Shown here in pieces: positions 2,271 through 41,691 of a stretch of 41,691 nucleotides of DNA. The position numbers and the translations under genes are program-made. The stretch lies in the NCBI GenBank assembly GCA_035291405.1, contig DATDSD010000065.1:1-41691 (forward strand), in the 5' to 3' direction. The stretch's first letter is position 1, and every line of letters begins with the position of its first letter. The DNA is from Patescibacteria group bacterium (GTDB lineage: Bacteria; Patescibacteriota; Microgenomatia; UBA8517). The notes under the pieces were generated by a model, which made no database searches, was not told the DNA's origin, and worked only from the letters and a program-made list of their open reading frames with translations.

Positions 2271-2291
2271 AATTAGAATCGGAAAAAAATA

Positions 2292-5052: not shown

Positions 5053-5174
5053 TTGATTTACGTCAAGTGTATCAGAAAATAAAAACTCTTGACAAATTAA
5101 ATAATTTATTAGGGACAAACAAATCGGATCTTGTGATACAATATAGGCTCGTTCACCTTAAATTGATTGAGCCT

Positions 5175-5245
5175 GATCCGGTGTGAGAGTGGATATCAGA
5201 CGGTCTGCAAAACCGTTTACATGGGTTCGAATCCCATCCGGATCT
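5175..5245 (+). tRNA. tRNA-Cys (anticodon GCA)
   Basis: Hand-folded cloverleaf. The acceptor stem pairs GATCCGG with CCGGATC, with discriminator T. The anticodon stem pairs ACGGT with ACCGT around loop CTGCAAA. The T arm is ATGGG-TTCGAAT-CCCAT. Length is 71 nt and the 3' CCA is not encoded. Confidence 0.9.
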
Positions 5246-5347
5246 CAAACCACCAAAATTTGACTTTTGACCATTCCACATGTTAGAATAGCCACATCTC
5301 GCAAGATATTTGCGGGATTTTTTTTGACCCAGATTTTCTGGGAACAT

Positions 5348-28524: not shown

Positions 28525-28542
28525 CTTTGTAATTTCGTCCAC

Positions 28543-28700
28543 TTATCCACAATTTATGATAATTTATACACATATTTATACACCGGCTTATCTCCCGTAA
28601 TAAACAAGAAAATCAGAATTTGAGAATTAACTTTAATAACATATCCCCATCCCCTACTACTAGTACTACTAATTAAAATATGATATTACATAAGTACCAT
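28543..28700. other. Candidate oriC core in the dnaA-dnaN spacer: DnaA boxes, GC cluster, DnaA-trio-like repeat and AT-rich tract
   Basis: Elements in order: TTATCCACA (28543..28551, perfect), TTATACACA (28564..28572), TTATACACC (28576..28584) and the degenerate ATATCCCCA (28641..28649). These are followed by TCCCC, then TAC-TAC-TAG-TAC-TAC-TAA (28655..28672), then an AT-rich stretch running to dnaN. Confidence 0.55.
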
Positions 28701-28723
28701 TTTTGAAGAAAAAAAATAATATT

Positions 28724-29833
28724 ATGAAACTATCAATACTACAAGAAAACCTAAAAAATGCAGTTAACCTAACAAGCCATTTCATTTCTAGTAAAGCCCA
28801 ACTTCCTATCCTTGCAAATATTTTGATTAAAGCAGATAAAACAAAGTTAACTTTTTCAGCAACTAACTTAGAAAATTCAATTACTACTTCAATTGCAGCT
28901 AAAATTGAAAAAGAAGGGGAAATAACAGTCAATGGAAAAATTCTAAATGATATAGTTTCTAATCTGTCGTCAGGAACCATAGAAATTGAAATGGTTAAAG
29001 AGCAAATAAAATTAAGTTCACTAAAATTTAAGTCAAATATTTTAGGCTCAAATACTTCAGATTTTCCAAAATTACCCAAAGATATTGGGAAAAAACCAAT
29101 TATTTTAAATAAAGAAGAATTTATTAAAAGTCTATCAAAAATTCTTTTCTCTGTATCTCTTGATGAAACAAGACCAATCTTAACTGGAGTTTTATTTCTC
29201 TTTAAAAACAAAAGTCTTTCTCTTGTGGCGACTGATGGATTTAGACTCTCTGAAATTAACTTAAAAACACAAGTGGAGGTTGGAGACTTTAGTCTGATTA
29301 TTCCAAGGTCGATTTTGAACGAAATAATTAGAATTGAAGGCGAGGATGAAATAATGATGTCGTATGACAAAGACAGTAATCAAGTCATATTTAAACTTGG
29401 TGATACTCTACTTTCCTCAAGGGTTATTGAGGGAGAATTTCCTGATTACAAAAAAATTATACCTAAGAGTTCAGAAGCTATTTTAAACGTTGATAAATAT
29501 GAATTGGAAAAAGCTATTAAATTATCCTCGGTTTTTGCAAGAGACTCCGGAAATATCATTAAGATTAAGATAGAGGATAGTATTATGGTCATCTCAGCTG
29601 AAAGCTCCTCTTCAGGAAGTCAGGAAACAGAGTTAGAAACACGAAACGAGGAAACATCTAAAAATAAGATTGAGATAATGTTTAACTTTAGGTTCATTGA
29701 GGAAGCTATAAAATCTATAGAAGATGATGAAGTACAAATTAAAATAACTGGACCAAATACTGCTGCAATTTTCTTGGATCCAAAATCCTCTAACTTTCTT
29801 CACTTAATAATGCCAATTAAATCACAAAGCTAA
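28724..29833 (+). CDS. dnaN: DNA polymerase III beta sliding clamp
   Basis: MKLSILQENLKNAVNLTSHFISSKAQLPILANILIKA is a typical DnaN N-terminus, and the protein has three-domain length. The ORF track starts at a TTG at 28703; the ATG at 28724 is preferred. Synteny with dnaA. Confidence 0.95.
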   Translation: MKLSILQENLKNAVNLTSHFISSKAQLPILANILIKADKTKLTFSATNLENSITTSIAAKIEKEGEITVNGKILNDIVSNLSSGTIEIEMVKEQIKLSSLKFKSNILGSNTSDFPKLPKDIGKKPIILNKEEFIKSLSKILFSVSLDETRPILTGVLFLFKNKSLSLVATDGFRLSEINLKTQVEVGDFSLIIPRSILNEIIRIEGEDEIMMSYDKDSNQVIFKLGDTLLSSRVIEGEFPDYKKIIPKSSEAILNVDKYELEKAIKLSSVFARDSGNIIKIKIEDSIMVISAESSSSGSQETELETRNEETSKNKIEIMFNFRFIEEAIKSIEDDEVQIKITGPNTAAIFLDPKSSNFLHLIMPIKSQS

Positions 29834-29837
29834 TAAC

Positions 29838-30503
29838 TTAAAATTCTTCGTTAGGTTGCATCGTGTAATATTTAATAGGTTCTTCTGCTCCAGCTTTTTT
29901 TAGTTTTTTCAAAGCATCTTCAATAATTGTTTTTATCGTTTGTTCGTCTGTCTGTTCTTGTAAAAATCTAATTCTAAACATTTTTTTATCATAATCATAA
30001 ACGATTCTATATTCTTTTGTTTCAATAGGAAGACTTGTGTACCAAGGGTTATCTTCAACAAATCTCCTTGTTGCATCATTGTAGGCAGTATCCCCTTCTG
30101 CTTGGAGTTTTCCTTCACTTTCTAGCTGCTCAGGTGTAAAAGGGTTTGTTGTAAATTCAAAGGAATAGATCTCTTTCTCGACAAAGTTAATTGAAATTTT
30201 ATATTTAACCCCATATTCAAATTGGTTTTCCGGCGAAATGCGAATTTTATTAGTTTGATAAACAATTTCAGATTTTACTTGAGGTTCTATTTTAACTTTC
30301 AGGTTGTTTCCTTCTTCTAAAGACATTTCTCTGTTTAGTTCAACTAATACTTCCGACTTTTCGTTTACAAAAACAGCATTATTTTTTGGAGTTGTTGATA
30401 TGACACTAAGAGTAGGAACCTCTTCCTTTTTTGGAATTAATAAGATTAAAACAAAAATTATAAAAACAATAAGACCTATAAAAATAAATATTTTTTTCTT
30501 CAT
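29838..30503 (-). CDS. Membrane-anchored extracytoplasmic protein, last gene of the T4SS-like operon
   Basis: 221 aa. An N-terminal TM (IFIFIGLIVFIIFVLILLI) is followed by a beta-rich segment and then an alpha/beta C-terminal domain. Its start overlaps the upstream stop in an ATGA arrangement. Confidence 0.6.
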   Translation of the reverse strand: MKKKIFIFIGLIVFIIFVLILLIPKKEEVPTLSVISTTPKNNAVFVNEKSEVLVELNREMSLEEGNNLKVKIEPQVKSEIVYQTNKIRISPENQFEYGVKYKISINFVEKEIYSFEFTTNPFTPEQLESEGKLQAEGDTAYNDATRRFVEDNPWYTSLPIETKEYRIVYDYDKKMFRIRFLQEQTDEQTIKTIIEDALKKLKKAGAEEPIKYYTMQPNEEF

Positions 30504-32956
30504 GGTAATCCTATTCCAATTACATCAATATATCCAGGTTTTCCTTGTAAACCACCTGAACCTAAGGTCAAATGCTCAACCTTAAGCCCAGCATTTGATT
30601 GAATATATGTTACATCATCCCCATTTACCTGATAAATCATACCAACATGATCAATTCTGTCTTTTTCGTTATCTACGTCAAAAAATATTACAGCACCAGG
30701 AAGGGCGTTTGTGGAATTAACATCCTTTGCATCAAAATATGTGTGATTATTGTAAAAGTCATCTTTCATTGTTGGTGAATATAATGTTGGATTAATACTA
30801 ATTCCGTTTTCTGTATATGCTTTTTGTATAAGCCAAGTACACCAGAAAAGATCTTCTCCTGCTGTTGGGCTGGCGTCGGGATTTGTGGCATACAACTGTT
30901 CATCAAATAACTCAGGATAACTTGGAGGGTAAGTCGTTACATCTGTAGAATAATCTCCTGGAGATCTATTCCAATAACACCAGAAACCTTGATATAAATC
31001 TTCAACAATATGCAAGCCACGGGTTGCAACTGCAGAATTTACAGAATAATTAATTCCTGTAGGTTCTTTTAATGGAGAACATCCTAAACCTGGCCCTGGT
31101 CCTGGACCATCTACAACAGGTTGCGGTGGAACCATATAAGCCCCTGAATTAATAACCAACATTATAAAAGCAACCATTGGAGGAATAACTACAAGAGCAA
31201 TGATAACTGGAGCGGCTATCGTAAAAACAAAGGCTCTACCTAATACCCCAAGAAAACCACCAACTGAAGCACCAATCTTTGCAAGAGAAAAATTTTTTGC
31301 AAGGAGCATTCCACCAAGAAACATTCCCCCACCAACCCAAGGTCCCCAAATCGCAAGCCCCCCAACACCTAAAAGTATTGGTCCATTATCTCTAAGCCAT
31401 TTCTTTATCTTAGGTAAATTAATAATTTTTCCAATTGCCGCCATCACTGCCGTAATTAAAATAGAAACACCAGCCGTGAATACTCCCAAACCAACACCTA
31501 TAGCTGCAGCCCCTTTTGCAAGTAACCCACTAAGGCCAGCCTTTACCCCGACACTAGTTGCAACTTTACCTGCAACCTGTTTTGTTACTCCAGTGGATAT
31601 TGCTACTGAGGGTGTAACAGCAACGGAGGATGTTATCCCGGTGTTGATTCCTGCTAATTTTCCTACACCACTTATAATTGGTGCATATTCTGGAGCAATT
31701 TTTAAGGCAAGCCTTCCAAGTAAATTAGTAGCCTCCCATTTAACAGGAGTTCCAATACCAAATCTAGAAAAGAGTAAACTTTTTGCTTCTGTTGATTGAA
31801 GAATTTTTCCAGCGGCAGACTGTGGTGTAAGTAGAGCAATCCTTTTTTCAATTAGAGTACCTGCCCGTCGGTACAAAACCCCTTTTGTTTGGTCAACTCC
31901 AAATTCTTTTACCAAAGCCAAGCTTTGACTTTGATCATCTATTATTTGTTGGTTACTCTGAACAACTTGATATGGAGAAAAGGTTGAAACATATCCAGGT
32001 TGTGGGGTTTCTGAGATACTCACCTTAACTTTATCAGGACCAACTCCAAAAACAATATTTGCAAAACTTTCACCAAAAGCTAATTTGGTGATATCTTTTG
32101 CAATTTGATCAGGAAAAATTCTAAAAACAGCAACATTATTTGCACTATGCTTTATTAAATCTTGTGCATCTTTTGTGACGGCAGTTTTACTTATAACGTC
32201 GGGAGTATTTGCAATATGTGCAAGAACTGCAGTTTGATAAGAGGTAGGAATGTACTGAGGAGAATCAATCTGGGTTAAATTTTCAACCAATTGTGTAGCA
32301 GTCTGTTTTGTTACAACTTTGATTTCTTCTTCTGTTAGTCCTTGCTTTTTAAGTTCAACAGATGTTCTTTTCTCAATTTCTTGACTTAAATCTTCGACTG
32401 CTTGCTTAGGATCTTGTTTAGAGAATTCTTTGTATGTATCAAAATCTTTTTGTTCGTCTTCTGTTAATTTTGTTTCTTCCTGTGGCTCTATTTTTACATG
32501 CAGTACCTTTTCCTTTTGTTTTTCTAAATCTTTTAAAATCTGATCATTTTTTGTCTTTAATTCTTCAAGTTTTTGTCTTGCTCTATCAACTTCCTGTTTT
32601 GCGTTTTCTCTAGTTTCTTTAATTTGTTCTTCTCTTTTTTCCAATTTCTCTTCCAGCACAGCAGACTCGTCTTTATTGATTGTTGTCTTTTGTTGTGCTT
32701 CGGGTCTTTCTGCCTCTTTAGTTGTTCTTATTCTTTCCTCATACCAGTGTTCTACTAGAATTCCTAAGTACTTATCTGGAATGTCAATGTCTTTTGGAAT
32801 ACCTAAATTAATCAGTTGTTTTTTAATGATTTTAAATTCTTCAGATTCGTATTCTAAGATATTCTTCAACCTATCACTTAAGAACTTCAATTGTTCATCT
32901 GATAATGTTTCTGGTACTGGTAAATCCAATAATTGAGATAAGATATTGTTTTTCAT
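30500..32956 (-). CDS. T4SS-associated cell-wall hydrolase: coiled-coil N-domain, Gly-rich multi-TM region, C-terminal CHAP/NlpC-P60 domain
   Basis: 818 aa with no signal peptide. Residues ~80-200 are a highly charged coiled coil. A Gly/Ala-rich hydrophobic region follows (GVGLGVFTAGVSILITAVMAAIG, GGLAIWGPWVGGGMFLGGMLL, FVFTIAAPVIIALVVIPPMVAFIMLVI), then a GPGPGPG linker. The papain-like hydrolase motifs are DLFWCTWLIQKAY (catalytic Cys) and IDHVGMIY (His). Confidence 0.75.
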   Translation of the reverse strand: MKNNILSQLLDLPVPETLSDEQLKFLSDRLKNILEYESEEFKIIKKQLINLGIPKDIDIPDKYLGILVEHWYEERIRTTKEAERPEAQQKTTINKDESAVLEEKLEKREEQIKETRENAKQEVDRARQKLEELKTKNDQILKDLEKQKEKVLHVKIEPQEETKLTEDEQKDFDTYKEFSKQDPKQAVEDLSQEIEKRTSVELKKQGLTEEEIKVVTKQTATQLVENLTQIDSPQYIPTSYQTAVLAHIANTPDVISKTAVTKDAQDLIKHSANNVAVFRIFPDQIAKDITKLAFGESFANIVFGVGPDKVKVSISETPQPGYVSTFSPYQVVQSNQQIIDDQSQSLALVKEFGVDQTKGVLYRRAGTLIEKRIALLTPQSAAGKILQSTEAKSLLFSRFGIGTPVKWEATNLLGRLALKIAPEYAPIISGVGKLAGINTGITSSVAVTPSVAISTGVTKQVAGKVATSVGVKAGLSGLLAKGAAAIGVGLGVFTAGVSILITAVMAAIGKIINLPKIKKWLRDNGPILLGVGGLAIWGPWVGGGMFLGGMLLAKNFSLAKIGASVGGFLGVLGRAFVFTIAAPVIIALVVIPPMVAFIMLVINSGAYMVPPQPVVDGPGPGPGLGCSPLKEPTGINYSVNSAVATRGLHIVEDLYQGFWCYWNRSPGDYSTDVTTYPPSYPELFDEQLYATNPDASPTAGEDLFWCTWLIQKAYTENGISINPTLYSPTMKDDFYNNHTYFDAKDVNSTNALPGAVIFFDVDNEKDRIDHVGMIYQVNGDDVTYIQSNAGLKVEHLTLGSGGLQGKPGYIDVIGIGLP

Positions 32957-34836
32957 GCTTCTTTATTCCATGCTTTTAAATTAGGCATTGTTGTCGTCGG
33001 ATTATCTTGCGGTTTAGTATTAATTAATTTATGTTCTTCTTCAGAAGCAACAACTCTAATAGGTGCATGGTGAGGACCGGCAAAGAAAATTCCTTCTCCG
33101 ACATTTGCTGCTAAGAGTAATTGTTTTTCTCCTTGAGAAAGATAGAAAAGATCTCCTATTTTATCTATTGCTGCAGGTGATTGTTTCAGTAGAAGCCTTA
33201 AAGCGCTGTTTGTGACAATTGCCTTTCCAATGTCCTGACTTAGGAAGTCCTCGACGTCCTGAGTGATTGTAGTGAGTCCCAGATAGTATTTTCTAGCCCT
33301 CTTGACAACGGACCAAAGAAATTGTGCCGTGTCAGGATATCTCATCATGTGCCACGCCTCGTCTACAATTAATATTCTTCTTTTAATATCTTTTTTAACT
33401 CTGGTCCAGATATAGTCTAAAATCATAAACATCGCAATTGGTCTTAGTGCATCTTGTAAATCTTTAACAGAAAAAACAGTGAAGGGATTATTTAAATTTA
33501 TGTTTGTCTGTTTATCAAAAATTCCCTGGAAGGATCCTCTAACAAATTTTTCAATACGGGCGGCCAAATCCAAAGCCTCTGGAACCTCCATGCCAATTAA
33601 AGTTTTGTATAAATCTTCAATTAAAGGAGGCTCTTTGGTTTGAGTTTCTGGATCATTTGTTATACCCTTGGCTTTATAAGTCATAATTAAAGCACGGTCA
33701 AGCATTGCTTCTTGCGTTGGTGTGATTTGACCCATTATAACTTTCATCAGGGAGTGAAGAGACAGTATTTTTAATCCCAATTGATTTTCTCCCTCTTCTC
33801 TAATTTGAGCAAGATCAAAAGGATTAATTTTTGCTGAAGAATTAAATGAGAAAGCAATATATTCTCCCCCCACAGCTTCACAAAGGGTTTTATACTCAGC
33901 TTCAGGATCTAATATTATTGCTTCTGAACCAATCATTAAGGACCTGACCGCTTCAAGTTTTACAAAATACGATTTTCCGGCACCAGAGGTGGCAAACACA
34001 GTCATGTTTCCATTCTCCAAAGAAAATCTGTCAAATATAATGAAAGATTCATTTTGGGAGTTTATTCCGTACAAAACCCCCCTGTCTGATGACAATTCTG
34101 CTGATGTAAATGGAAAAGTGGTAGCAACAGAAGTTGTATCCATATTCCTAGTGATTGCTAATCTGTCTTGTCCATATGGTGCTGATGAAAGAAAACCTTC
34201 ACGTTGGTCAAGCATTGCATGTTTAGCAACAATTAAAAGTGAACCCAAAAGAGACTCAATTTGACGACTTATATTATTTAATTCATCAATAGAATTTGCA
34301 GGAATAGTAATGTAAAAAGAAAATTCATAATATCTTTCAATCCCCTTTACAAGTTGTTCTTGAAGAGCCCTTGCATCTTCAAGTTTAGCTGTAGTTGCAG
34401 GGTCAACAATTCTTCCCCTTTCAATATCAGTTGAGATTTCAGCCTCCATTTCTGCAATTTTTCGTCTAAGGTCGTCTAACACAGACTTTCCTTGGACGGG
34501 GTAAACATAAAAAGAAATATCTAAAGAACTATTAAAATTAACAATAGGTTCAAGCCATCCAGGAGCAACAAACCTTGGATAGCCTGCAACAAATAAAGTT
34601 TTGTAGTAAACATTGTTTACTTTTATAAAATCAAAATCTACTTCAACATCGTTTGGAGCAATTACATCATGAAGTTGCATTCCTCCACTTTCAATCATTG
34701 ATATCGGGTTTTTAATCTCGGGTTTTACTATAGCTACTGGTTTTTCCATTTTCTTATTCTGTTCTTCGACTTTTATGTTTGTATTGGTTGGAACTACAAC
34801 CGGTTCGCCTGCTTGATTTAAACTGTTATTATTCAT
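32953..34836 (-). CDS. virB4: VirB4/TraC/TrsE-family T4SS ATPase
   Basis: 627 aa. Walker A is FATSGAGKSYFVK and Walker B is RRILIVDEAWHMM (the DEAW typical of VirB4). The downstream block is YYLGLTTITQDVEDF. Its stop overlaps the next ATG (ATGA). Confidence 0.88.
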   Translation of the reverse strand: MNNNSLNQAGEPVVVPTNTNIKVEEQNKKMEKPVAIVKPEIKNPISMIESGGMQLHDVIAPNDVEVDFDFIKVNNVYYKTLFVAGYPRFVAPGWLEPIVNFNSSLDISFYVYPVQGKSVLDDLRRKIAEMEAEISTDIERGRIVDPATTAKLEDARALQEQLVKGIERYYEFSFYITIPANSIDELNNISRQIESLLGSLLIVAKHAMLDQREGFLSSAPYGQDRLAITRNMDTTSVATTFPFTSAELSSDRGVLYGINSQNESFIIFDRFSLENGNMTVFATSGAGKSYFVKLEAVRSLMIGSEAIILDPEAEYKTLCEAVGGEYIAFSFNSSAKINPFDLAQIREEGENQLGLKILSLHSLMKVIMGQITPTQEAMLDRALIMTYKAKGITNDPETQTKEPPLIEDLYKTLIGMEVPEALDLAARIEKFVRGSFQGIFDKQTNINLNNPFTVFSVKDLQDALRPIAMFMILDYIWTRVKKDIKRRILIVDEAWHMMRYPDTAQFLWSVVKRARKYYLGLTTITQDVEDFLSQDIGKAIVTNSALRLLLKQSPAAIDKIGDLFYLSQGEKQLLLAANVGEGIFFAGPHHAPIRVVASEEEHKLINTKPQDNPTTTMPNLKAWNKEA

Positions 34837-34839
34837 AAT

Positions 34840-35649
34840 TTATATATCTTTCTTTACTGCTGGTGGCTCAGGATTATTTATCCAATAATAAAGATCAATT
34901 AAATCGTTAGTTGTTAATTGCTTTAGTTTAAGACCAAGTCTTCCAGCCTGTCTTATAAGATGATCTCTTTTGGGGAAAAGTGTAATCTTTGCCTTTTTAA
35001 GTACATAATCTTTTGGAAATGGTAATGGGCCTTTTTTAAGAACAGATTGGGCTGATTTTGTAACCCCAAGTTCAAGTGGACTAAAAGGAATTGCTATGAA
35101 AAATCTTTTTCCCAAAACTGTTTTTTTCTTAATAGAGTCTGTTATAAAATGCCTGTAATCAGCAGTAATGTTAGCCAACTTAGGATTTGTAATTTTACTT
35201 GAAGATTCATCAAAAAATCTAATATAACCAGATATATCCTTTTTCTGAGTTCTAACAACAATTTGCATTGAAAAAGAAAGAGAATTAATTAGAGCTGCAA
35301 ATGCAGCAACTACTGCCTGTTGTTCTTTTTCAGAAAGTAAACCAAAGTTAAGTGAGGAAGATTCCAAAACAACAGATGCTCCCCCATCTTTGAACAGAAC
35401 AATATCATCAACAATATCAGCGATAGGTAGATGATCCTGTGTTGTTGACCTAAGTGGCATGTCTGGTGTTCCAAAATATGGAATTTTACTGATTAACTCT
35501 TTTAATTTTTGTTTAAAATCAGAACCTTTTTTACTTTCAACTTTTGTTTTTTCAGTTTGTGAATTATTAACAACAGGTTGTGAAGAGGTATTACTCTGTG
35601 TGGTGTAAATTGTTGTTTGGTTTGGTTGTTGTACTTTTACGTTATCCAT
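34840..35649 (-). CDS. Hypothetical T4SS-operon protein resembling a stand-alone VirB4 N-terminal domain (no P-loop)
   Basis: 269 aa. A Ser/Thr/Gln-rich N-terminus is followed by LPIADIVDDIVLFKDGGASVVLESSSLNFGLLSEKEQQAVVAAFAALINSLSFSMQIVVRTQKKDI. This matches the order of conserved blocks I recall at the N-terminus of Gram-positive VirB4/TraC proteins. No Walker motifs are present. Confidence 0.5.
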   Translation of the reverse strand: MDNVKVQQPNQTTIYTTQSNTSSQPVVNNSQTEKTKVESKKGSDFKQKLKELISKIPYFGTPDMPLRSTTQDHLPIADIVDDIVLFKDGGASVVLESSSLNFGLLSEKEQQAVVAAFAALINSLSFSMQIVVRTQKKDISGYIRFFDESSSKITNPKLANITADYRHFITDSIKKKTVLGKRFFIAIPFSPLELGVTKSAQSVLKKGPLPFPKDYVLKKAKITLFPKRDHLIRQAGRLGLKLKQLTTNDLIDLYYWINNPEPPAVKKDI

Positions 35650-35651
35650 AT

Positions 35652-36671
35652 TTATATTTTCTTTCCTTTAATAGCAATTGGAGGAATTATTTCCCCGTTT
35701 GTTTCAAAACTAACAGGATCAAAGGTAAATCCTTCTTTTTCAATTGAAATTTCATATTTACCATTTGCAAGAGGAGTAACAATTATGAAGTGACCTGCTT
35801 TATTACTCTTTAATGCTCTAACAGGTCTTCCATTTAAGTCCTTAATTTCAAGTATGGCCCCTTCGATTATTTTTCTTTCCTGATCCATTACTTGTCCAAC
35901 TACCGTATTAGCAACAATTGCTGGTTGTGGTGGTGCGGCATCAATGGAAAACTCTGCCTCATTGGTAGTAATTTTCTTTTCTTCCAGTTTAGGAACATCT
36001 AAACTACTAACCGTTAAATTGTTAGTAACAGCAGGGCCATGTTCTTCAACAACAAGCCTTGGAGTAGATCTTGTTATAACAGTTGGGATTTGTTGTGGAA
36101 TTGCAACCAAGTTTGGTTTAGTTGGTTGTGGCTTTGGTGCAACTGGTTTAGTGACATCTGTTTGGAGTACAGCAACCTGTACGGGTGGTTGGACAGTAGT
36201 TGAAGGGGGTTGTTGGGTCTTAGCGGATGGAGAGGAAATACTCCATAGTGACCCTAGTTTTGCTAAGAACGATTTTTCAGCCTCTTCTAGTTTTTTAGCG
36301 TTAGGTTCAATAGCTGTTTGACCAGCAGGAACGTTTCCAATTGCTGGCACCTGAGCGTTTTCAGTAAAGAAAACAGCCGGTTTTTCTGTCTTTTTCCATG
36401 TATACAATGTGGGGGAGTAGATTGATCTAAAAAAAGCAATAATCCATTTTTCCAAAGGTCTTTCTTGAAAAGGTAAGAAGGCCATTGCAGCACCCAAAGC
36501 AGCAGACAATACAATTATTGGCCATTTTATTATTGGGTGAAGGGGGGTGGCATAGAAAAGTAGACTGACAACAATACCACCAGCAACTTGAAAAAATTGC
36601 TTTAAAGTCATATCTCCCACTAATTTGAATTGATATGAACTTATCTGTTGTGGTATTGGATGTTGTTCCAT
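35652..36671 (-). CDS. PrgI/VirB3-like two-TM protein fused to a Pro-rich linker and a C-terminal beta-sandwich domain
   Basis: 339 aa. The N-terminus HPIPQQISSYQFKLVGDMTLKQFFQVAGGIVVSLLFYA...IIVLSAALGAAMAFLPFQERPLEKWIIAFFRS fits PrgI-family topology. The linker reads QQPPSTTVQPPVQV..KPVAPKPQPTKP. The C-terminus VVGQVMDQERKIIEGAILEIKDLNGRPV...NKAGHFII..LANGKYEISIEKEGF looks like a carboxypeptidase-regulatory-like fold. Confidence 0.6.
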   Translation of the reverse strand: MEQHPIPQQISSYQFKLVGDMTLKQFFQVAGGIVVSLLFYATPLHPIIKWPIIVLSAALGAAMAFLPFQERPLEKWIIAFFRSIYSPTLYTWKKTEKPAVFFTENAQVPAIGNVPAGQTAIEPNAKKLEEAEKSFLAKLGSLWSISSPSAKTQQPPSTTVQPPVQVAVLQTDVTKPVAPKPQPTKPNLVAIPQQIPTVITRSTPRLVVEEHGPAVTNNLTVSSLDVPKLEEKKITTNEAEFSIDAAPPQPAIVANTVVGQVMDQERKIIEGAILEIKDLNGRPVRALKSNKAGHFIIVTPLANGKYEISIEKEGFTFDPVSFETNGEIIPPIAIKGKKI

Positions 36672-36772
36672 ATGAGCAGTTGCCTATAATAAAGCATAGT
36701 GCGTGAAGGGTTATGTGCAACAAGTGCAGTTTTTCACAAGATTTAATTTCATTTTCAATTAACTTTATATTT

Positions 36773-36781
36773 TGGTATAAT
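36773..36781 (+). promoter_or_regulatory. Extended -10 element (TGGTATAAT) positioned for a leaderless transcript of the 861-aa gene
   Basis: TGGTATAAT at 36773..36781. The ATG at 36789 lies 7 nt downstream. There is no purine-rich Shine-Dalgarno sequence in between (TCTTGTT). Confidence 0.35.
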
Positions 36782-36788
36782 TCTTGTT

Positions 36789-39374
36789 ATGCCAGAACCA
36801 GGTTTTAACGAGGGTGGTCAATCAAAGTCCTCAATTGATATTTTAATGAAGGCGGGTGGCCCATCAAAGCTTGTGGGAATGGAACCCCAAAAAGTATCTT
36901 TCTCTGGATCAATGAAAATGGAGGACAACCAAAACAAAACAATTCTTCCCGATCCAATTCCAGGAACAGTTTACGGTTCTGCTCGAAAGAAATGGGAAGA
37001 ACAGATAGAAGCAGGTAATATTCCACAATCAGTCATTGACCAGGCAAATGTGGTTAATTTGCTTGATGATGAAGAGATGCAGCGTAGGTCTCAAGAAGCA
37101 AATTTTTATGCTGTTCAACGGGAAGAACAGTATGCTCGCAGAGATAGAATTTTAGGCAGATTAACAAATGCAGAATCAGTTGCAGATGTTGTAGCTACTT
37201 TAGATGTTCTTAAAGATTTTATGGACTGGAGCAAAGCCGAAGCGTCTGATCCATATAGTTTTAGATATTATACAAAAACCGCATTAGATGGTGCGAGAGC
37301 TTTTAGTAAAACACATCAGCAATTAGCAGATGAGGGAATAGTTAGGGGACCCCTTAGAAGAGGTGGTACTTACGGAAATGCCATTGGTGTAGATGGCTAT
37401 TTAGTTGAAGGTGCCCAAGTTTTGCAAAATGGTTATGCAATTAGAGTGGAGAAAGATATTGAAGAAAAACCTAATGGTAAAACAAAAGTTAAAGAAAGAT
37501 ATTATTATGGTACAGAAAAAGAAAGAGTAGCCTTAGCCAATGCTCATGAACAGTTAATGAGAGCTCTAATCACTGGTCAAAAAATTCATGAACAGACAGG
37601 AGCTTTCGATATGAACAGAGCCTCTCTAGAAGAAATGGTCAAGTATTTTTATATAAGACAAGTTGGACTTACAAATGAACAAATAACATGGGTATTTACT
37701 GCGGCGGATATTAAAAAAATTACTCCAGAAGCTCCTAATAATCAAGAATCTGGATTAAGAAGAAGCAAGGCAACTAGAGCATTATATTTATTAGGAAAAT
37801 GTGAAACTAAAGAGAAAATGGAAGATCATTTAAATAACACCTTTAATTTTGATAAGTTTCTTGATCAACCAACAATAAAAAGAACGTTGGAAATTATGAA
37901 AACTGTCGGATTTGTAGATGAACAAGCTAAAGGTATGACAGACCAAGTCAAGGCAGCAAGATTTTTAATAGGAAAAGGTCTAACATACGACGAAAAAGAA
38001 AAAAGTTGGAAAGTTAATTGGCTAGATAAAAATCAGAGAGATCCTTCAAAAGCAACCACCGATAAAGAAAAAGACAAAAGAGGAACTGGTGCAATTAAAG
38101 AGGAAAAAGAGGTTAGAGGATTTTTAACAGAGTTTGGAAATCCCTACACAAGGGGTAATAGAGATGCGATGTACTTGTTACTTAACAGAATAGGTTCAAT
38201 TATAGGTGATACTGATAATATTGATGTTAAAATTGCGGACAGATTGTTTTGGACATGGGGAGAAAAAGACGAATTAGGTCTTGAAGTATATTCACCGGAA
38301 AATATTCCAACAGGGGAGCAATTTTTAGAATCTTTTAATAGATTGGCTTCGGAAGATTATGAAAAATGGAGAAAATTAGCAGATGAGCATCTAAGATATT
38401 TTTCTCTTCCAGGTGAACCGATCGGTTCTGATTTGTCAAAAATATTCTACCCTCAGTTTTATAGATTAAAAGATTTACTTAATGATCGTCCTACTGGTTC
38501 ACCTTTAACAGTTGATAAATTTAAAAGATTTACACAAAGTTTAATGACATTAGCCCGAAATGAGGTTTGGTGTGGAAGATATGAAAAAGATGACGAGGGA
38601 AAACCCGCATTTAAGAAAAAAGAAGATGGTAAACCCGAACTTGATGAGAACGGAAGAACCATACCGATAAAGTTAGTAGAGACCCGATCGGTAAGAGAGC
38701 AATTTTTGGGACATAAAGCAACCGATGGTTTGCCAGAAGAACATGCTAAAGAAATGGGTGAAATTGGTTGGGACCAAATTTCAGCCCCCGCAGAAATGGA
38801 AGATGTAAAAATTGGAGAAAGTCATGAACTTTCACCTGAACAAAGACAGGCTCTGGAGAAGTCAATTGGATTAAATAGCGGAGCAGTTGCCGATAATGCC
38901 ATGGGTTATTTTTGGCTTATGAATTTCTTGGCTGGAGACGGAAATCCCGATAAAAGACCATGGGCATTTATTAACGATGAAAGCCCTGACCAAAAAAAGC
39001 TAATAAAAGCTTCTGGTTTTACTGCAAAAAATAAATTTTTAACTATTGTTTGGCATGATTCTGCACTAGTTTATGGGGATTGGAGAAAAAAAAGTATTGA
39101 AGCAGATTTAGCAAGAAAAAAAGTGAAAGTTCTAATAAAAGAACAGGCCAAAGAAGCTTGGGCAATAGGCAGAAAAGCTTGGTATGCTGGAGTAAGAGCT
39201 CTTCCTGATTATCCAACATGGTCTAGTCAAACTTTAGATTATAGAGATATTGAAAGTGGTGCTGGTAAAAGTATTACTATTGTAAATTATATTGAACAAC
39301 TTGCTGTTAGATTTGGATTTTTAGATCCAAAAGAAATTAGAAGATTTCCAAAACAACGGTTAAAAATAATATAA
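36789..39374 (+). CDS. Large hydrophilic orphan protein (861 aa), divergent from the T4SS-like operon
   Basis: 2.6-kb uninterrupted ORF in an AT-rich genome. It has no TM segment, no signal peptide, no P-loop and no motif I recognise. It is rich in K/E/D/W/Y. Confidence 0.8.
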   Translation: MPEPGFNEGGQSKSSIDILMKAGGPSKLVGMEPQKVSFSGSMKMEDNQNKTILPDPIPGTVYGSARKKWEEQIEAGNIPQSVIDQANVVNLLDDEEMQRRSQEANFYAVQREEQYARRDRILGRLTNAESVADVVATLDVLKDFMDWSKAEASDPYSFRYYTKTALDGARAFSKTHQQLADEGIVRGPLRRGGTYGNAIGVDGYLVEGAQVLQNGYAIRVEKDIEEKPNGKTKVKERYYYGTEKERVALANAHEQLMRALITGQKIHEQTGAFDMNRASLEEMVKYFYIRQVGLTNEQITWVFTAADIKKITPEAPNNQESGLRRSKATRALYLLGKCETKEKMEDHLNNTFNFDKFLDQPTIKRTLEIMKTVGFVDEQAKGMTDQVKAARFLIGKGLTYDEKEKSWKVNWLDKNQRDPSKATTDKEKDKRGTGAIKEEKEVRGFLTEFGNPYTRGNRDAMYLLLNRIGSIIGDTDNIDVKIADRLFWTWGEKDELGLEVYSPENIPTGEQFLESFNRLASEDYEKWRKLADEHLRYFSLPGEPIGSDLSKIFYPQFYRLKDLLNDRPTGSPLTVDKFKRFTQSLMTLARNEVWCGRYEKDDEGKPAFKKKEDGKPELDENGRTIPIKLVETRSVREQFLGHKATDGLPEEHAKEMGEIGWDQISAPAEMEDVKIGESHELSPEQRQALEKSIGLNSGAVADNAMGYFWLMNFLAGDGNPDKRPWAFINDESPDQKKLIKASGFTAKNKFLTIVWHDSALVYGDWRKKSIEADLARKKVKVLIKEQAKEAWAIGRKAWYAGVRALPDYPTWSSQTLDYRDIESGAGKSITIVNYIEQLAVRFGFLDPKEIRRFPKQRLKII

Positions 39375-39386
39375 TACAAATTAAAA

Positions 39387-40970
39387 TTATCTAATACCTT
39401 TTATCATGCCTTCGAGTGTTCTACCTACACCTTCTTGAACAGGATTACTCCATCTATTTATCCAAGGACCCAATATGGGAATTCTACCTATAGGTTCTGG
39501 TGTATCGTGGTGTTCCCATTGGGCAGCAGCATAATTACCATATCCCTTTGCAATAGGTCCTATATCAAAACCATATTCATATGGTTTACCAGCTATGATT
39601 GATTGGATAATTTCTACCACTTTAGTTGCTTGGCTAAAAATTACAAAACTTACAACAACCCATAAAATGTTATCACCTAATGCAAAACCTGAAAAGGGTG
39701 GCCTCCAGCTGTTGTCACCAATAACGTCATGTACAGGATCTCCAAAAATAGTCCCCGCTCCCACACCAGACAATGGGCTATCAGATCCCTGTACAAGGAA
39801 AAAGAATGAAAAGAAAAAAATAAGACCAAGTAATGGATAAACCGCCAAAAGTGATATTAATTTTCTAAGCCATGCACCAAAACTAGATTTACCGGTAAAT
39901 GCCCCTACCAAGATTTGTAATGGGCCAATTGCTATAGTTATCATAATCATCGCAAAGTTTTTGAGAATTACGTATATGATTTTAATTGACCACCAGATGA
40001 TTGCTAATATTGAAATTACCGCAAACAAAAAAACCAACACTCCCATGATAACAGAACTCAAACTGCTAAAAATTGCTAGTAAGGCATTATACATAAATGC
40101 AACCCAATACGCATACATTAAACTAAAAGCATCATATGTCGAATTAAGCGTGTCAAACATAAACGAAAAGCTCGAAGAACTTAAGCCATTACTTGTTATT
40201 AGGCCTGCAATTAATGCTATTACTACATACATTAAATCAATTACAAAACCCGCAATTGCATAAGAGAAAGTAATCAAAATTGTTGTAAATATAATGTTTG
40301 GAAGTGCCGATTGAACAGATATAACAACTTGTGGAGAAATCTTCATTCTAAACATTATCATAAAAGAAATAACAATAACCGCCAAAACTATAAGAGCATA
40401 ACTCATATTTCTTGTTGCTTGCCACAATTTTTTTGCAGGATTTGCAGCAGAATTATATCCAAACCCTTGTGCACGGACATCACTAACAGGGTTAAATTTA
40501 CTAATCAATTCTTTTGTATATCCAATACCTGATATTGGACTTCGTCCGAGAGTGGATAAAAATGAATTATTTGTTGAAGCAAGAGTGGGATTGTTAGCAT
40601 CTGCAATAGGATTAAGTATATCTAGGGCTTTTACAAAAATATCCCAACACGCCGTAGTGTTACCACTTGCCAAACAAGTAGTTAATTCCGGATTACCTGG
40701 TATGTAATTCCAAACGTGAGCCCAAAGGGAATATAAAATCCATTGGACTTGAGCTGCTGTGTATCTTTCTCCAAATATCTCACTGGTTGGAGAAACATCC
40801 TCGTCATACACTTTTGAATACCAAGTAAAAGGATTTTGTTCACTATACCATTCATGATTCCACAAATTTTCTATTTCGTCAGCGGTTGCGGCAGAAACAG
40901 TAGTTGGTAAAGCAAAAGAATTTAAAAATAAAGCTAAAGAGAAAATAATTAGTAAAAGTTTTTTGAGCAT
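39387..40970 (-). CDS. Polytopic membrane protein, candidate VirB6/TrbL/PrgH-type channel subunit
   Basis: 527 aa. A signal peptide (LLLIIFSLALFLNSFALPTTVSA|AT) precedes a ~170-aa ectodomain, then about 6-7 TM helices and a ~100-aa C-terminal tail. The assignment rests on architecture and context only. Confidence 0.5.
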   Translation of the reverse strand: MLKKLLLIIFSLALFLNSFALPTTVSAATADEIENLWNHEWYSEQNPFTWYSKVYDEDVSPTSEIFGERYTAAQVQWILYSLWAHVWNYIPGNPELTTCLASGNTTACWDIFVKALDILNPIADANNPTLASTNNSFLSTLGRSPISGIGYTKELISKFNPVSDVRAQGFGYNSAANPAKKLWQATRNMSYALIVLAVIVISFMIMFRMKISPQVVISVQSALPNIIFTTILITFSYAIAGFVIDLMYVVIALIAGLITSNGLSSSSFSFMFDTLNSTYDAFSLMYAYWVAFMYNALLAIFSSLSSVIMGVLVFLFAVISILAIIWWSIKIIYVILKNFAMIMITIAIGPLQILVGAFTGKSSFGAWLRKLISLLAVYPLLGLIFFFSFFFLVQGSDSPLSGVGAGTIFGDPVHDVIGDNSWRPPFSGFALGDNILWVVVSFVIFSQATKVVEIIQSIIAGKPYEYGFDIGPIAKGYGNYAAAQWEHHDTPEPIGRIPILGPWINRWSNPVQEGVGRTLEGMIKGIR

Positions 40971-40989
40971 TAATTTATTCTACTACATT

Positions 40990-41691
40990 TTATAGTCCAT
41001 GTCCTACATCCCAAACACATCCATTATGACTTTCTTCACCTGGATACCTATTGTTTATTGTCTCACAATCATCACCTGTTGGGCAGTTTGAACTCATTCC
41101 CCCGGTAGAACAACTATTTTTAAAGGTTGCACACATGTAGGTACTGTTGTATTCTGGTCCATATTCCCACCACCTGATTGCAGTTTCATAGTCTCTCGCA
41201 TCCCAGCTACATGTTCCGGCGGTATTTATGCTTTGTCCTGTGTTAAGTGGTATTCCAAAACAAGAATGCCCAGTAAAGGCACTTGCTCCTGTTGCACTTC
41301 TACTTAAAGTCCAAGAAATTCCATAAATTACATCAAGGAGATTACATGGATCTGGTTCGGTTTTGTTTGGATCAAGATTTTGCAAATCATCCTTTATATT
41401 TTGTGCTATTTCATCCCAAACGGTGGTATTAACAAAACCAACAACAGTTGTTTCTGGTCCTGAACAATTAGGAATTGGTTCGCAGGTGGCCCAATTTAAT
41501 ACATTTTCCTCTGTCCAGTCATATCCTTGTCCGGTTGAATTCCCGTGAGCCGAGTTAAAAGCTCCTTCTCCATACATAACACCTAAGATTAAATTTGGAG
41601 GTGTTTTATAAGTTTCAGCTGCAGCCTCTAAGATTTCCTTAAATGTTGGTGGAATACTTCCAACCTTTGAACTAACCCCGCCCAATGCACA
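40990..41691 (-). CDS. Cys-rich secreted protein, partial (5' end beyond the window); possible lysozyme-like/VirB1-like function
   Basis: The frame is open to the window edge (..CA-LGGVSSKVGS). There are 10 Cys in 233 residues (TCEPIPNC, DPCNLL, GHSCFG, GTCSW, MCATFKNSCSTGGMSSNCPTGDDCE, NGCVW). LILGVMYGEGAFN is only vaguely like a lytic-transglycosylase catalytic Glu block. Confidence 0.6.
   Translation of the reverse strand, partial: CALGGVSSKVGSIPPTFKEILEAAAETYKTPPNLILGVMYGEGAFNSAHGNSTGQGYDWTEENVLNWATCEPIPNCSGPETTVVGFVNTTVWDEIAQNIKDDLQNLDPNKTEPDPCNLLDVIYGISWTLSRSATGASAFTGHSCFGIPLNTGQSINTAGTCSWDARDYETAIRWWEYGPEYNSTYMCATFKNSCSTGGMSSNCPTGDDCETINNRYPGEESHNGCVWDVGHGL

What the first reader, a model, noticed from the sequence alone, without database searches (positions are those of the whole stretch)
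29838..41691. Gram-positive-type T4SS-like island with no visible DNA-processing genes, directly abutting dnaA-dnaN
**Content.** Seven to eight consecutive genes encode a minimal monoderm T4SS parts list:
- PrgI/VirB3-like protein (35652..36671)
- VirB4 ATPase with clear Walker A/B motifs (32953..34836)
- TM-anchored CHAP/NlpC-P60 wall hydrolase (30500..32956)
- VirB6-like polytopic protein (39387..40970)
- Cys-rich exoprotein (40990..end)
- three proteins with no recognisable family

**Operon structure.** Five genes (36671 down to 29838) are translationally coupled, with gaps of 2-3 nt or ATGA overlaps.

**What is missing.** Within the 12 kb there is no relaxase, no VirD4/TcpA-type coupling ATPase, no integrase, no oriT-like repeat and no plasmid replication or partition gene.

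**Interpretation.** The cluster starts 4 nt after the dnaN stop, which is an unusual place for a mobile element. An apparatus with VirB4 but without T4CP or relaxase, in a small genome, suggests a non-conjugative role such as DNA uptake, protein delivery or cell-cell attachment. Such a system is not well characterised.
Basis: partly seen in the sequence, partly recalled or inferred. Interest (0 to 1): 0.8.

Follow-up and report, generated by a model that had tools for sequence, protein, structure and literature searches.

The report
Woesebacteria origin-proximal type IV secretion locus

Summary
Every ORF and every tight gene junction is as described. Profile searches confirm a VirB4 ATPase, a PrgI/VirB3-like protein and a membrane-anchored CHAP hydrolase.

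I found no relaxase, coupling ATPase or integrase in the 41.7-kb window or in 9.3 kb beyond its right edge. The cluster continues about 4.8 kb past the window, with the rest of an 885-aa Cys-rich exoprotein and eight VirB2-like pilin genes.

The organism is a Candidatus Woesebacteria (Patescibacteria, Microgenomates). The locus is a conserved core locus, not a mobile island. In 59 of 59 related species with enough sequence, dnaN lies convergent within 2.2-7.4 kb of virB4. VirB4 is also better conserved than DnaA or DnaN.

This system, including the missing relaxase, the pilin arrays and the dnaA proximity, was published by Wang et al. 2023 (Cell) and Quinonero-Coronel et al. 2025 (Microb Genom). 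Its Saccharibacteria counterpart is essential for epibiotic growth.

- The 527-aa polytopic protein has a VirB6-like predicted fold.
- The 269-aa protein is TrsD-like, resembling a VirB4 N-terminal domain.
- A large soluble orphan gene (g861) occupies a conserved slot, but its sequence is hypervariable between species.
- The Cys-rich exoprotein has a swappable C-terminal module.

Verdict: already known, with modest added interest.

The parts
27145..29833 (+). dnaA (27145-28524) and dnaN (28703-29833): the conserved chromosomal anchor of the locus. Perfect DnaA boxes lie at 27065 and 28543.
   Evidence: Pfam Bac_DnaA 2.4e-61 and DNA_pol3_beta 1e-30. DnaA boxes. dnaN is convergent with the T4SS operon in 59/59 related loci with enough sequence.
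29838..30503 (-). g221: N-terminal TM anchor plus an Ig-like (Big_5) exported protein. It is the last gene of the prgI-virB4 operon and the positional counterpart of the essential exported Ig-like SEML1_0005 of Southlakia.
   Evidence: Pfam Big_5 1e-6, 29.9 bits against 23.6. TM segment 1-30. Southlakia table. Only 6/80 tblastn homologues, so it evolves fast.
30500..32956 (-). g818: about 470 aa of charged, coiled-coil-like N-terminal region, a TM block around residues 475-610, and a C-terminal CHAP/NlpC-P60 peptidoglycan hydrolase. Functionally a VirB1 analogue.
   Evidence: Pfam CHAP 2.2e-6 (28.5 against 26) and NlpC_P60 5.7e-4 at residues 703-788. Hydropathy. Homologues in 48/80 loci at a median 30% identity.
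32953..34836 (-). VirB4-family ATPase of the MPF_FATA / CD1110 type, lacking the usual N-terminal domain.
   Evidence: NF045971 4.8e-113, 378.9 bits against a 325 cut-off, matching model positions 177-735 of 752. P-loop_TraG 2.5e-30. PDB 4ag5 2.3e-47. 80/80 loci at a median 77% identity.
34840..35649 (-). g269: TrsD-like protein, homologous to a VirB4 N-terminal domain. Together with the ATPase it makes a 'split VirB4'.
   Evidence: NCBIfam TrsD 1.5e-5 and Mbov_0397 VirB4 positions 104-221 at 4.5e-5, both far below curated cut-offs. Precomputed Pfam TraC-like, weak. Adjacent to virB4 in 80/80 loci at a median 64% identity. TrsD is the commonest VirB4 neighbour in Patescibacteria (PMC12102498).
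35652..36671 (-). PrgI/VirB3-like membrane protein (TM hairpin, residues 26-70), with a Pro/Gln-rich linker and a C-terminal CarboxypepD_reg-like beta-sandwich. First gene of the operon.
   Evidence: Pfam PrgI 1.3e-6, 29.3 against 27. CarboxypepD_reg 1.1e-5, 26.1 bits, below its 32.3 cut-off. Hydropathy. 77/80 loci.
36672..36788 (.). Divergent intergenic region between prgI (-) and g861 (+). An extended -10-like TGgTATAAT ends at 36781, 8 nt before the g861 ATG.
   Evidence: Promoter-like sites overall are not above chance in this AT-rich DNA (38 found against 40.6 expected), so this is only a lead.
36789..39374 (+). g861: an 861-aa soluble, highly charged orphan protein on the opposite strand. 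It occupies a positionally conserved but sequence-hypervariable slot inside the T4SS locus.
   Evidence: No Pfam, NCBIfam, PHROG, PADLOC or PDB match. 19 homologues by word search and 82 representative clusters among 1.84 billion proteins. AlphaFold pLDDT 73.9 and pTM 0.74, with no Foldseek match in PDB or BFVD. All 62 loci holding both flanking genes have a 526-1083-aa ORF in the same slot and orientation. Of these, 63 ORFs of at least 550 aa from 61 loci are soluble and charged, and fall into at least 5 sequence families.
39387..40970 (-). g527: signal peptide, an exported domain of about 150 aa with 2 conserved Cys, and 6-7 TM helices. A VirB6-like channel subunit.
   Evidence: AlphaFold pLDDT 76.4. 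The top six Foldseek PDB hits are all TrwI/VirB6 of R388. None of 68 family members hits Pfam. 978 homologues. 63/80 loci at a median 36% identity.
40990..41691 (-). C-terminal 233 codons (the variable module) of g885, an 885-aa Sec-exported protein with 24 Cys. The gene continues 1956 nt beyond the window, followed by eight VirB2-like pilin genes (L001:4461-7312).
   Evidence: L001 overlaps the window end exactly over the last 300 nt. Gene table. All 8 small proteins hit Pfam T4SS_pilin, 3 above the gathering score. Mean pairwise pilin identity is 25%. The g885 family has a conserved N-terminal region of about 620 aa and a swapped C-terminal module.

Best explanation
**Identity (shown).** This is the Woesebacteria version of the chromosomally fixed, vertically inherited 'Patescibacteria-clade' type IV secretion system. 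That system derives from the monoderm MPF_FATA conjugation machinery but has lost its DNA-processing genes.

**Anatomy.** There are two operons on the minus strand.
- Operon 1: eight VirB2-like pilins, the Cys-rich exoprotein g885, and the VirB6-like g527.
- Operon 2: PrgI/VirB3, TrsD-like, the VirB4 ATPase, the CHAP wall hydrolase, and an Ig-like anchored protein.
- Between them sits one oppositely oriented soluble orphan gene (g861).
- The whole locus abuts dnaN-dnaA at the replication origin.

**Mechanism (inferred).**
- VirB4 and its separately encoded N-domain homologue dock on PrgI and VirB6-like subunits to form the membrane channel.
- The CHAP enzyme opens the bacterium's own peptidoglycan.
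- The pilins are extracted from the membrane into a pilus or conduit that contacts the host bacterium.

**What it moves (my commitment, about 40%).** I judge it most likely a contact-dependent, T4CP-independent two-step exporter and presenter of Sec-delivered envelope-active proteins such as g885. This would resemble the Ptl system and serve attachment to, and breaching of, the host envelope. Import of host macromolecules is the main alternative (about 30%). It is not a conjugation system.
For: **Components.**
- VirB4 passes the curated CD1110 cut-off. PrgI passes Pfam's cut-off.
- TrsD-like and T4SS_pilin hits are present.
- g527 has a VirB6-like predicted fold. A CHAP domain is present.

**Organism and conservation.**
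- The organism is Candidatus Woesebacteria.
- Gene order is pilins, g885, VirB6-like, slot gene, PrgI, TrsD, VirB4, variable hydrolase, dnaN, dnaA, rnpA, yidC. It is kept across 80 species representatives, and dnaN adjacency holds in 59/59.
- Median identities are VirB4 77% and TrsD 64%, against DnaA 59% and DnaN 47%. This indicates strong purifying selection on the motor.
- Exposed parts are fast-evolving: g527 36%, g885 32%, CHAP 30%, and pilin paralogues 25% to each other.

**No mobility genes.** None were found across about 51 kb.

**Literature.**
- The same gene order next to dnaA/dnaN/recF occurs in Southlakia epibionticum, where nearly all of SEML1_0004-0019 are essential in Tn-seq.
- A phylum-wide survey reports the clade, the missing relaxase, the pilin arrays and the dnaA/dnaN/rnpA neighbourhood.

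**For the two-step export idea.**
- There is no T4CP nearby.
- A Sec-signal Cys-rich protein is encoded between the pilins and VirB6. Its orthologues carry alternative C-terminal modules: SLT_3 lysozyme-like, marked by a W-x-x-E-S-x-A-S-N-Y motif in 22 of 36, and a GDSL lipase in one.
Against: - Function has not been shown for any Patescibacteria T4SS. Reviews call it 'completely unknown'.
- The direction of transport and the substrate are inference only.
- The TrsD-like and VirB6-like assignments rest on weak scores: E about 1e-5, well below curated cut-offs, and Foldseek E 0.02-0.3 with TM about 0.4.
- g885's own C-terminal module is unassigned and does not carry the SLT motif.
- The rest of this genome could not be scanned. 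A distant T4CP is possible; the 2025 survey found VirD4-like hits far from virB4 in most genomes. A novel relaxase cannot be excluded either.
- The 80 compared loci were chosen by VirB4 similarity, which inflates VirB4 identity somewhat relative to the other proteins.
Confidence: 0.85

Rival explanations
1. The machine imports rather than exports. It would take up DNA, nucleotides or other macromolecules from the attached host cell through the pilus and channel, as in H. pylori ComB or archaeal Ced. This would compensate for the missing biosynthetic pathways.
For: - There is no relaxase or T4CP.
- VirB4 shows weak similarity to the archaeal DNA-import ATPases CedB (3.2e-12) and CedD (1.6e-6).
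- ComEC is dispensable in Southlakia while the T4SS is essential.
- Both the authors of the 2025 survey and a PNAS perspective favour import.
Against: - The CedB and CedD scores (45.9 and 27.1 bits) are far below their cut-offs (700 and 600) and reflect only the shared ATPase fold.
- No DNA-binding or nuclease component is recognisable in the locus.
- Import does not obviously explain the hypervariable soluble slot gene or the polymorphic hydrolase exoprotein.
Confidence: 0.3
2. It is a one-step effector translocator. Cytoplasmic proteins, with the hypervariable soluble slot protein g861 as the prime candidate, would be injected into the host bacterium.
For: - g861-type proteins are soluble, with no signal peptide or TM segment. 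They are always encoded inside the locus yet fall into at least 5 sequence families with no detectable homology between them, a pattern typical of host-interface or arms-race genes.
- g861 has a disordered N-terminus and a basic C-terminal tail.
- Effector delivery has been proposed for Saccharibacteria.
Against: - There is no coupling protein to recruit cytoplasmic substrates.
- No toxin or enzyme domain, and no structural match, was found for g861.
- C-terminal tails are not conserved across the slot families.
- The closest related species representative has no slot gene in the 3.6 kb available upstream of prgI.
Confidence: 0.15
3. It is a conjugative element, either an ICE or its decayed remnant, inserted beside dnaN. 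Its relaxase, T4CP and integrase would lie elsewhere or have been lost.
For: The VirB4, PrgI, TrsD and CHAP parts are homologous to MPF_FATA conjugation genes of Firmicute ICEs and plasmids.
Against: - No relaxase, T4CP, integrase, replication or partition gene lies in about 51 kb.
- There are no flanking repeats.
- GC content matches the flanks.
- Position next to dnaN is identical in 59/59 species.
- VirB4 is more conserved than DnaA.
- Only 109 relaxases were found in 3,035 Patescibacteria genomes.
Confidence: 0.03

Closest known systems
T4SS of Candidatus Southlakia epibionticum ML1 (Saccharibacteria), SEML1_0004/0006-0019 (Wang et al. 2023, Cell; PMC10633639)
   Same: - It lies immediately after dnaA-dnaN(-recF).
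- It has a minus-strand run of exported Ig-like protein, wall hydrolase, VirB4, a protein of about 290 aa (TrsD-like), and PrgI.
- It has polytopic VirB6-like proteins and an array of divergent VirB2-like pilins.
- No relaxase or coupling protein is recognised.

   Different: - Southlakia has six pilins, transcribed divergently. Here there are eight, co-oriented with the VirB6-like gene.
- Southlakia has two VirB6-like proteins of about 1000-1100 aa with ARM-like soluble domains and lysozyme-type hydrolases. Here there is a 527-aa VirB6-like protein, a CHAP hydrolase, an 885-aa Cys-rich exoprotein and a separate 861-aa soluble orphan on the opposite strand.
- Essentiality was shown only in Southlakia.
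Patescibacteria-clade T4SS as surveyed by Quinonero-Coronel et al. 2025 (Microb Genom; PMC12102498)
   Same: - VirB4 is nested in MPF_FATA.
- TrsD, PrgI/VirB3, VirB6 and VirB2-like pilin arrays are present, with 25% mean identity within arrays.
- The relaxase is absent.
- dnaA, dnaN and rnpA neighbour virB4 in Microgenomatia and Paceibacteria.

   Different: That survey found VirB6 'scarce' in Microgenomatia, and only 22.6% of VirB3 hits there were VirB4-associated. In this Woesebacteria set a PrgI homologue is adjacent in 77/80 loci, and a protein with a VirB6-like fold is present in 63/80. The passages of that paper I read do not mention the hypervariable slot gene or the modular Cys-rich exoprotein.
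MPF_FATA conjugative T4SSs of Firmicutes (CTn2 CD1110 family, pCF10 Prg, pGO1/pSK41 Trs)
   Same: - The best curated VirB4 model is CD1110 (378.9 bits).
- PrgI, TrsD-like and CHAP-type VirB1 analogues are present.
- The architecture is monoderm, without VirB7, VirB9 or VirB10.

   Different: - Those systems have a relaxase, a T4CP, oriT and surface adhesins, have no VirB2 pilins, and are on mobile elements.
- Here there is no relaxase, T4CP or oriT-like repeat. A pilin array is present, and the locus is fixed in the chromosome.
T4CP-less T4SSs: Bordetella Ptl, Brucella VirB, Helicobacter ComB
   Same: They are VirB4-powered machines that work without a coupling protein. They handle Sec-delivered periplasmic substrates (Ptl) or take up DNA (ComB) (my own knowledge of these systems).
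   Different: They are diderm MPF_T systems with VirB7-10 core complexes. There is no homology beyond the shared VirB4, VirB3, VirB6 and VirB2 folds. The analogy is mechanistic only and was not tested here.

Membership tests
Patescibacteria-clade T4SS (MPF_FATA-derived, non-conjugative) | VirB4 ATPase of the MPF_FATA lineage, falling in the Patescibacteria clade | tested here: met
   NF045971 CD1110 family 378.9 bits against a 325 cut-off. 7,999 of the 8,000 scored candidate homologues have E <= 1e-20; among the best 120 listed, every source name that gives an informative lineage is Woesebacteria, Microgenomates or Patescibacteria, apart from one record labelled Alphaproteobacteria. The 80 best genome loci are mostly named Woesebacteria, Microgenomates or Patescibacteria, with many MAG records labelled 'uncultured Gammaproteobacteria'. 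No explicit tree was built, so clade placement is by nearest neighbours only.
Patescibacteria-clade T4SS (MPF_FATA-derived, non-conjugative) | TrsD-like and PrgI/VirB3-like genes adjacent to virB4 | tested here: met
   PrgI scores 29.3 against 27. TrsD scores 1.5e-5, below the curated cut-off, with a weak TraC-like hit. Adjacency holds in 80/80 and 77/80 loci.
Patescibacteria-clade T4SS (MPF_FATA-derived, non-conjugative) | Array of divergent VirB2-like pilin genes in the locus | tested here: met
   Eight genes just beyond the window (L001:4461-7312) all hit PF18895, three above the gathering score. Mean pairwise identity is 25%.
Patescibacteria-clade T4SS (MPF_FATA-derived, non-conjugative) | VirB6-like polytopic subunit | tested here: inconclusive
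   No sequence-profile hit in any of 68 family members. The AlphaFold model's top six PDB matches are TrwI/VirB6, but with E 0.02-0.3 and TM 0.38-0.44.
Patescibacteria-clade T4SS (MPF_FATA-derived, non-conjugative) | Chromosomal, origin-proximal, with no relaxase nearby | tested here: met
   The locus abuts dnaN-dnaA-rnpA-yidC, and does so in 59/59 related species. No relaxase is found in about 51 kb. The rest of the genome is not testable with these tools.
Patescibacteria-clade T4SS (MPF_FATA-derived, non-conjugative) | Required for epibiotic growth | not testable with these tools
   Shown only for Southlakia epibionticum by Tn-seq. Woesebacteria are uncultivated.
Conjugative element (ICE or plasmid with MPF_FATA T4SS) | Relaxase (MOB) and oriT | tested here: not met
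   No relaxase family among the Pfam hits of the proteins scanned from the window and the L001 extension. No significant inverted or direct repeats.
Conjugative element (ICE or plasmid with MPF_FATA T4SS) | Type IV coupling protein (VirD4 or TcpA) | tested here: not met
   VirB4 is the only FtsK/HerA-type ATPase found in the 51 kb. A distant T4CP elsewhere in the genome could not be checked.
Conjugative element (ICE or plasmid with MPF_FATA T4SS) | Integrase or recombinase with flanking attachment repeats; variable presence among relatives | tested here: not met
   No recombinase. No repeats. The locus is present at the same site in all related species examined.
DNA-import T4SS-like systems (archaeal Ced, Helicobacter ComB) | CedA/CedB/CedD or ComB-specific components | tested here: not met
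   CedB scores 45.9 bits against 700 and CedD 27.1 against 600, so only the generic ATPase fold is shared. No other Ced or ComB family hit.

The most novel reading that the evidence does not exclude
Inside an otherwise rigidly conserved, probably essential T4SS locus, Woesebacteria keep one slot for a large soluble orphan protein (g861 here). Its sequence has diverged or been replaced so thoroughly that at least five families with no detectable homology occupy the same position and orientation. The adjacent Sec-exported Cys-rich protein also swaps its C-terminal enzymatic module (lysozyme-like, lipase, or unassigned). Together these would be the host-specificity or effector cargo of the Patescibacteria T4SS: the first concrete substrate candidates for a system whose function is an open question.
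Probability: 0.2. Interest if true: 0.65.

Novelty: already known. Interest (0 to 1): 0.3.

Why it matters
Patescibacteria are a large fraction of bacterial diversity and appear to live as obligate epibionts. Their T4SS is near-universal. It is essential in the one species tested, and it is the only known monoderm T4SS with VirB2-like pilins. What it moves, and in which direction, is unknown.

This window adds no new kind of system. It does show a clean Woesebacteria example and allows three modest refinements:
- A VirB6-like fold in a class where sequence profiles miss VirB6.
- The motor is more conserved than DnaA, while the exposed parts evolve fast.
- There are two candidate 'variable cargo' genes.

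These refinements could guide experiments on substrates in tractable relatives.

Tried and rejected
1. **Ordinary ICE.** Rejected. I scanned the window's proteins and 9.3 kb beyond the right edge and found no relaxase, T4CP or integrase, and no repeats.
2. **g861 as a known family.** Pfam, NCBIfam, PHROGs, PADLOC, PDB sequence and profile searches, Foldseek against PDB and BFVD, and an exhaustive profile search of 1.84 billion proteins all gave only Woesebacteria orphans.
3. **One superfamily for all slot proteins.**
   - Iterative HMM stalled at 14 of 64.
   - hhalign between the five BLAST clusters gave P >= 0.0013. The question is not resolved.
4. **Slot proteins as defence genes.** No PADLOC or Pfam hits.
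5. **g885 as a known fold.** There were no significant PDB hits with a single sequence or a profile. An SLT_3 domain appears only in some orthologues, and g885's own C-terminal module is different. I therefore dropped my initial guess that the window's fragment is a lytic transglycosylase.
6. **g269 against the PDB.** Nothing.
7. **Promoter and terminator scans.** Not above chance.
8. **DnaA boxes.** Not enriched window-wide, only locally clustered around dnaA.

Full report
**What is in the sequence.**

On the minus strand, from 36671 down to 29838, five genes are packed with 2-3-nt gaps or 4-nt overlaps:
- a 339-aa PrgI-family protein: Pfam 29.3 bits against a cut-off of 27, plus a weaker C-terminal CarboxypepD_reg-like match (26.1 bits, below its 32.3 cut-off);
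- a 269-aa protein;
- a 627-aa VirB4;
- an 818-aa protein with a transmembrane block and a C-terminal CHAP/NlpC-P60 domain;
- a 221-aa TM-anchored Big_5 Ig-like protein.

VirB4 is secure. NCBIfam NF045971 (CD1110 family) scores 378.9 bits against a cut-off of 325. Pfam P-loop_TraG scores 2.5e-30. The PDB VirB4 entry 4ag5 scores 2.3e-47. GAGKS and ILIVDEAW motifs are present.

VirB4 matches only positions 177-735 of the CD1110 model. The upstream 269-aa protein weakly matches TrsD (1.5e-5), the N-terminal part of a mycoplasma VirB4 (4.5e-5) and Pfam TraC-like. The VirB4 N-domain is therefore encoded separately.

The dnaN stop and the stop of the last operon gene are convergent with 4 nt between them.

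**Beyond the window.** An identical metagenome contig (L001, ENA ERZ28563784; its overlap with the last 300 nt of the window is exact) extends 9.3 kb past the right edge.

- The truncated 'Cys-rich exoprotein' is 885 aa long, with a signal peptide and 24 Cys.
- It is preceded by eight small genes of 97-137 aa. All hit Pfam T4SS_pilin (PF18895), three above the gathering score.
- These pilins share a two-helix hairpin with an SGGD(K/P) loop and only 25% mean pairwise identity.
- Next come SpoIID, a bPH_2 protein, a 481-aa protein with no family, and SmpB.

The cluster is therefore about 16.7 kb long and ends about 4.8 kb beyond the window.

The rest of the window is housekeeping, with no mobility gene:
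- groES/EL, leuS, tsaD, a Sua5-TsaE fusion, rplY, a DUF4012 protein;
- yidC, jag, rnpA;
- cell-wall enzymes.

No repeat above background is present in the cluster. GC content is like the flanks.

**Whose genome, and is it an island?** The best genome matches are MAGs named Candidatus Woesebacteria, Microgenomates or Patescibacteria. VirB4 is 96% identical to GW2011_GWB1_33_22.

I compared 80 species-representative loci by tblastn. The shared order is:

pilins, g885, g527, [large opposite-strand gene], PrgI, TrsD-like, VirB4, [hydrolase region], dnaN, dnaA, rnpA, yidC.

How often each gene was found:

| Gene | Loci (of 80) |
|---|---|
| VirB4 | 80 |
| TrsD-like | 80 |
| PrgI | 77 |
| g527 | 63 |

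- In all 59 loci with at least 9 kb downstream of virB4, dnaN lies convergent at 2.2-7.4 kb.
- Median identities are VirB4 77%, TrsD-like 64%, DnaA 59%, YidC 58%, PrgI 48%, DnaN 47%, g527 36%, g885 32% and CHAP protein 30%.
- The loci were chosen by VirB4 similarity, which biases that figure upward. Even so, the lowest VirB4 value (68%) exceeds the DnaA median.

This is a vertically inherited core locus under strong constraint, not a mobile island.

**Comparison with the literature.**

Wang et al. 2023 (PMC10633639) found by Tn-seq that an 'apparent T4SS' of the Saccharibacterium Southlakia epibionticum (SEML1_0006-0019) is essential for epibiotic growth. It has an essential pilin array and lacks recognisable coupling and relaxase proteins.
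- Their gene table shows the same arrangement directly after recF (SEML1_0003, coordinates 2737-3741). The table excerpt does not show genes 0001-0002.
- The order there is exported Ig-like protein, lysozyme-type hydrolase, a large protein, VirB4 (K12063), a 293-aa protein, PrgI, large polytopic proteins, then six pilins.

Quinonero-Coronel et al. 2025 (PMC12102498) surveyed 3,035 Patescibacteria genomes.
- VirB4 occurs in 2,417 of them, almost all in one clade nested in MPF_FATA.
- TrsD is the commonest neighbour, and PrgI/VirB3 and VirB6 are present.
- VirB2-like arrays of 2-11 genes are especially common in Microgenomatia, at 25% mean identity.
- Only 109 relaxases were found.
- dnaA, dnaN and rnpA neighbour virB4 in Paceibacteria and Microgenomatia.

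A 2025 FEMS review lists these systems as established newcomers to the T4SS superfamily.

The function remains 'completely unknown' (PMC11665869).

1. *VirB6-like fold.* The 2025 survey found VirB6 'scarce' in Microgenomatia. No member of the g527 family hits Pfam. An AlphaFold model (pLDDT 76.4) has TrwI/VirB6 of plasmid R388 as its six best PDB matches: probability 0.96-1.0 but E 0.02-0.3 and TM 0.38-0.44. This supports a VirB6-like channel subunit, weakly.

2. *The slot gene g861 (36789-39374, plus strand).*
   - It is real. It has homologues at 31-66% identity and an AlphaFold model with pTM 0.74.
   - It matches nothing in Pfam, NCBIfam, PHROGs, PADLOC, PDB or BFVD.
   - Only 82 representative clusters were found among 1.84 billion proteins.
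   - In all 62 loci holding both flanking genes, an ORF of 526-1083 aa sits in the same slot and orientation.
   - The 63 such ORFs of at least 550 aa, from 61 loci, are soluble and highly charged. With g861 they split into at least five BLAST families with no convincing profile-profile similarity and no known domains.

3. *The modular exoprotein g885.*
   - The family has a conserved Cys-rich N-terminal region of about 620 aa and a swapped C-terminal module.
   - 22 of 36 members carry a W-x-x-E-S-x-A-S-N-Y motif. Pfam SLT_3 is detected in two members and a GDSL lipase in one.
   - g885 and a few relatives carry a different, unassigned module, which is the part lying in the window.

**How it most likely works.**

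Shown: the parts list, its conservation, and the absence of mobility genes nearby.

Inferred from established T4SS biology:
- VirB4 with its TrsD-like partner energises a PrgI/VirB6-like membrane channel.
- The CHAP enzyme opens the cell's own wall.
- VirB2-like pilins are assembled into a pilus or conduit reaching the host cell.

The conserved motor contrasted with fast-evolving exposed parts fits a host-interface machine.

Systems that lack a T4CP either export Sec-delivered substrates (Ptl) or import DNA (ComB). A Sec-dependent, modular, hydrolase-bearing protein is encoded between the pilins and VirB6. I therefore favour contact-dependent presentation or export of envelope-active proteins (about 40%) over macromolecule import (about 30%), one-step effector injection with g861 as cargo (about 15%), and conjugation (at most 5%). 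None of this is tested.

**Verdict.** The system is already known, so interest is modest. The residual interest lies in the hypervariable slot gene and the modular exoprotein as candidate cargo.

Noticed in passing
window 36789-39374 (+), and the equivalent slot in L008-L086: All 62 related loci that hold both flanking genes have a 526-1083-aa ORF on the opposite strand between the VirB6-like gene and prgI. The 63 such ORFs of at least 550 aa are soluble and charged. Together with g861 they fall into at least 5 families with no detectable homology and no known domain or fold.
   Followed up: partly
window 40990-41691 (-) and L001:7324-9981: The 885-aa Cys-rich exoprotein family keeps a conserved N-terminal region of about 620 aa but swaps its C-terminal module between species. 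The module is SLT_3 lysozyme-like in most, a GDSL lipase in one, and an unassigned type here. This resembles polymorphic toxin or effector architecture.
   Followed up: partly
L001:4461-7312 (just beyond the right edge of the window): An array of eight VirB2-like pilin paralogues with 25% mean identity and a shared SGGD(K/P) loop between two TM helices. It shows that the T4SS cluster is cut by the window edge.
   Followed up: yes
L007:1-3650 (Woesebacteria GW2011_GWB1_33_22, VirB4 96% identical): The closest species representative has no slot-gene homologue. It also has no ORF of at least 100 aa at 1737-3650 upstream of prgI, which is unusual for a compact genome. This may be gene decay, a non-coding element, or a misassembly at the contig start.
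   Followed up: partly
window 32953-34836, compared with 27145-29833: Across 80 Woesebacteria species, VirB4 (median 77% identity) is better conserved than DnaA (59%), YidC (58%) or DnaN (47%) encoded next to it.
   Followed up: yes
window 36752-36789: An extended -10-like element (TGgTATAAT) ends 8 nt before the g861 ATG, with no Shine-Dalgarno sequence. The mRNA may be leaderless. Promoter-like sites are not above chance in this AT-rich DNA.
   Followed up: no
window 29831-29840: dnaN (+) and the last T4SS operon gene (-) end convergently only 4 nt apart, with no terminator-like structure. Transcription from the two sides must collide or read through.
   Followed up: no
window 14942-15991 (+): A single ORF fuses Sua5/TsaC (Pfam 4.6e-42) with TsaE (1.1e-25), directly upstream of tsaD. 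The t6A pathway genes are thus fused and clustered.
   Followed up: no
window 4201-6028, 11772-13520 and 20817-23360: A group of envelope proteins typical of CPR genomes: a PEGA+SH3 protein, an M23 peptidase, a VanW/PG_binding_4 protein and an 847-aa DUF4012 protein. The PEGA/Ig-like theme recurs in the essential exported protein next to the Southlakia T4SS.
   Followed up: no
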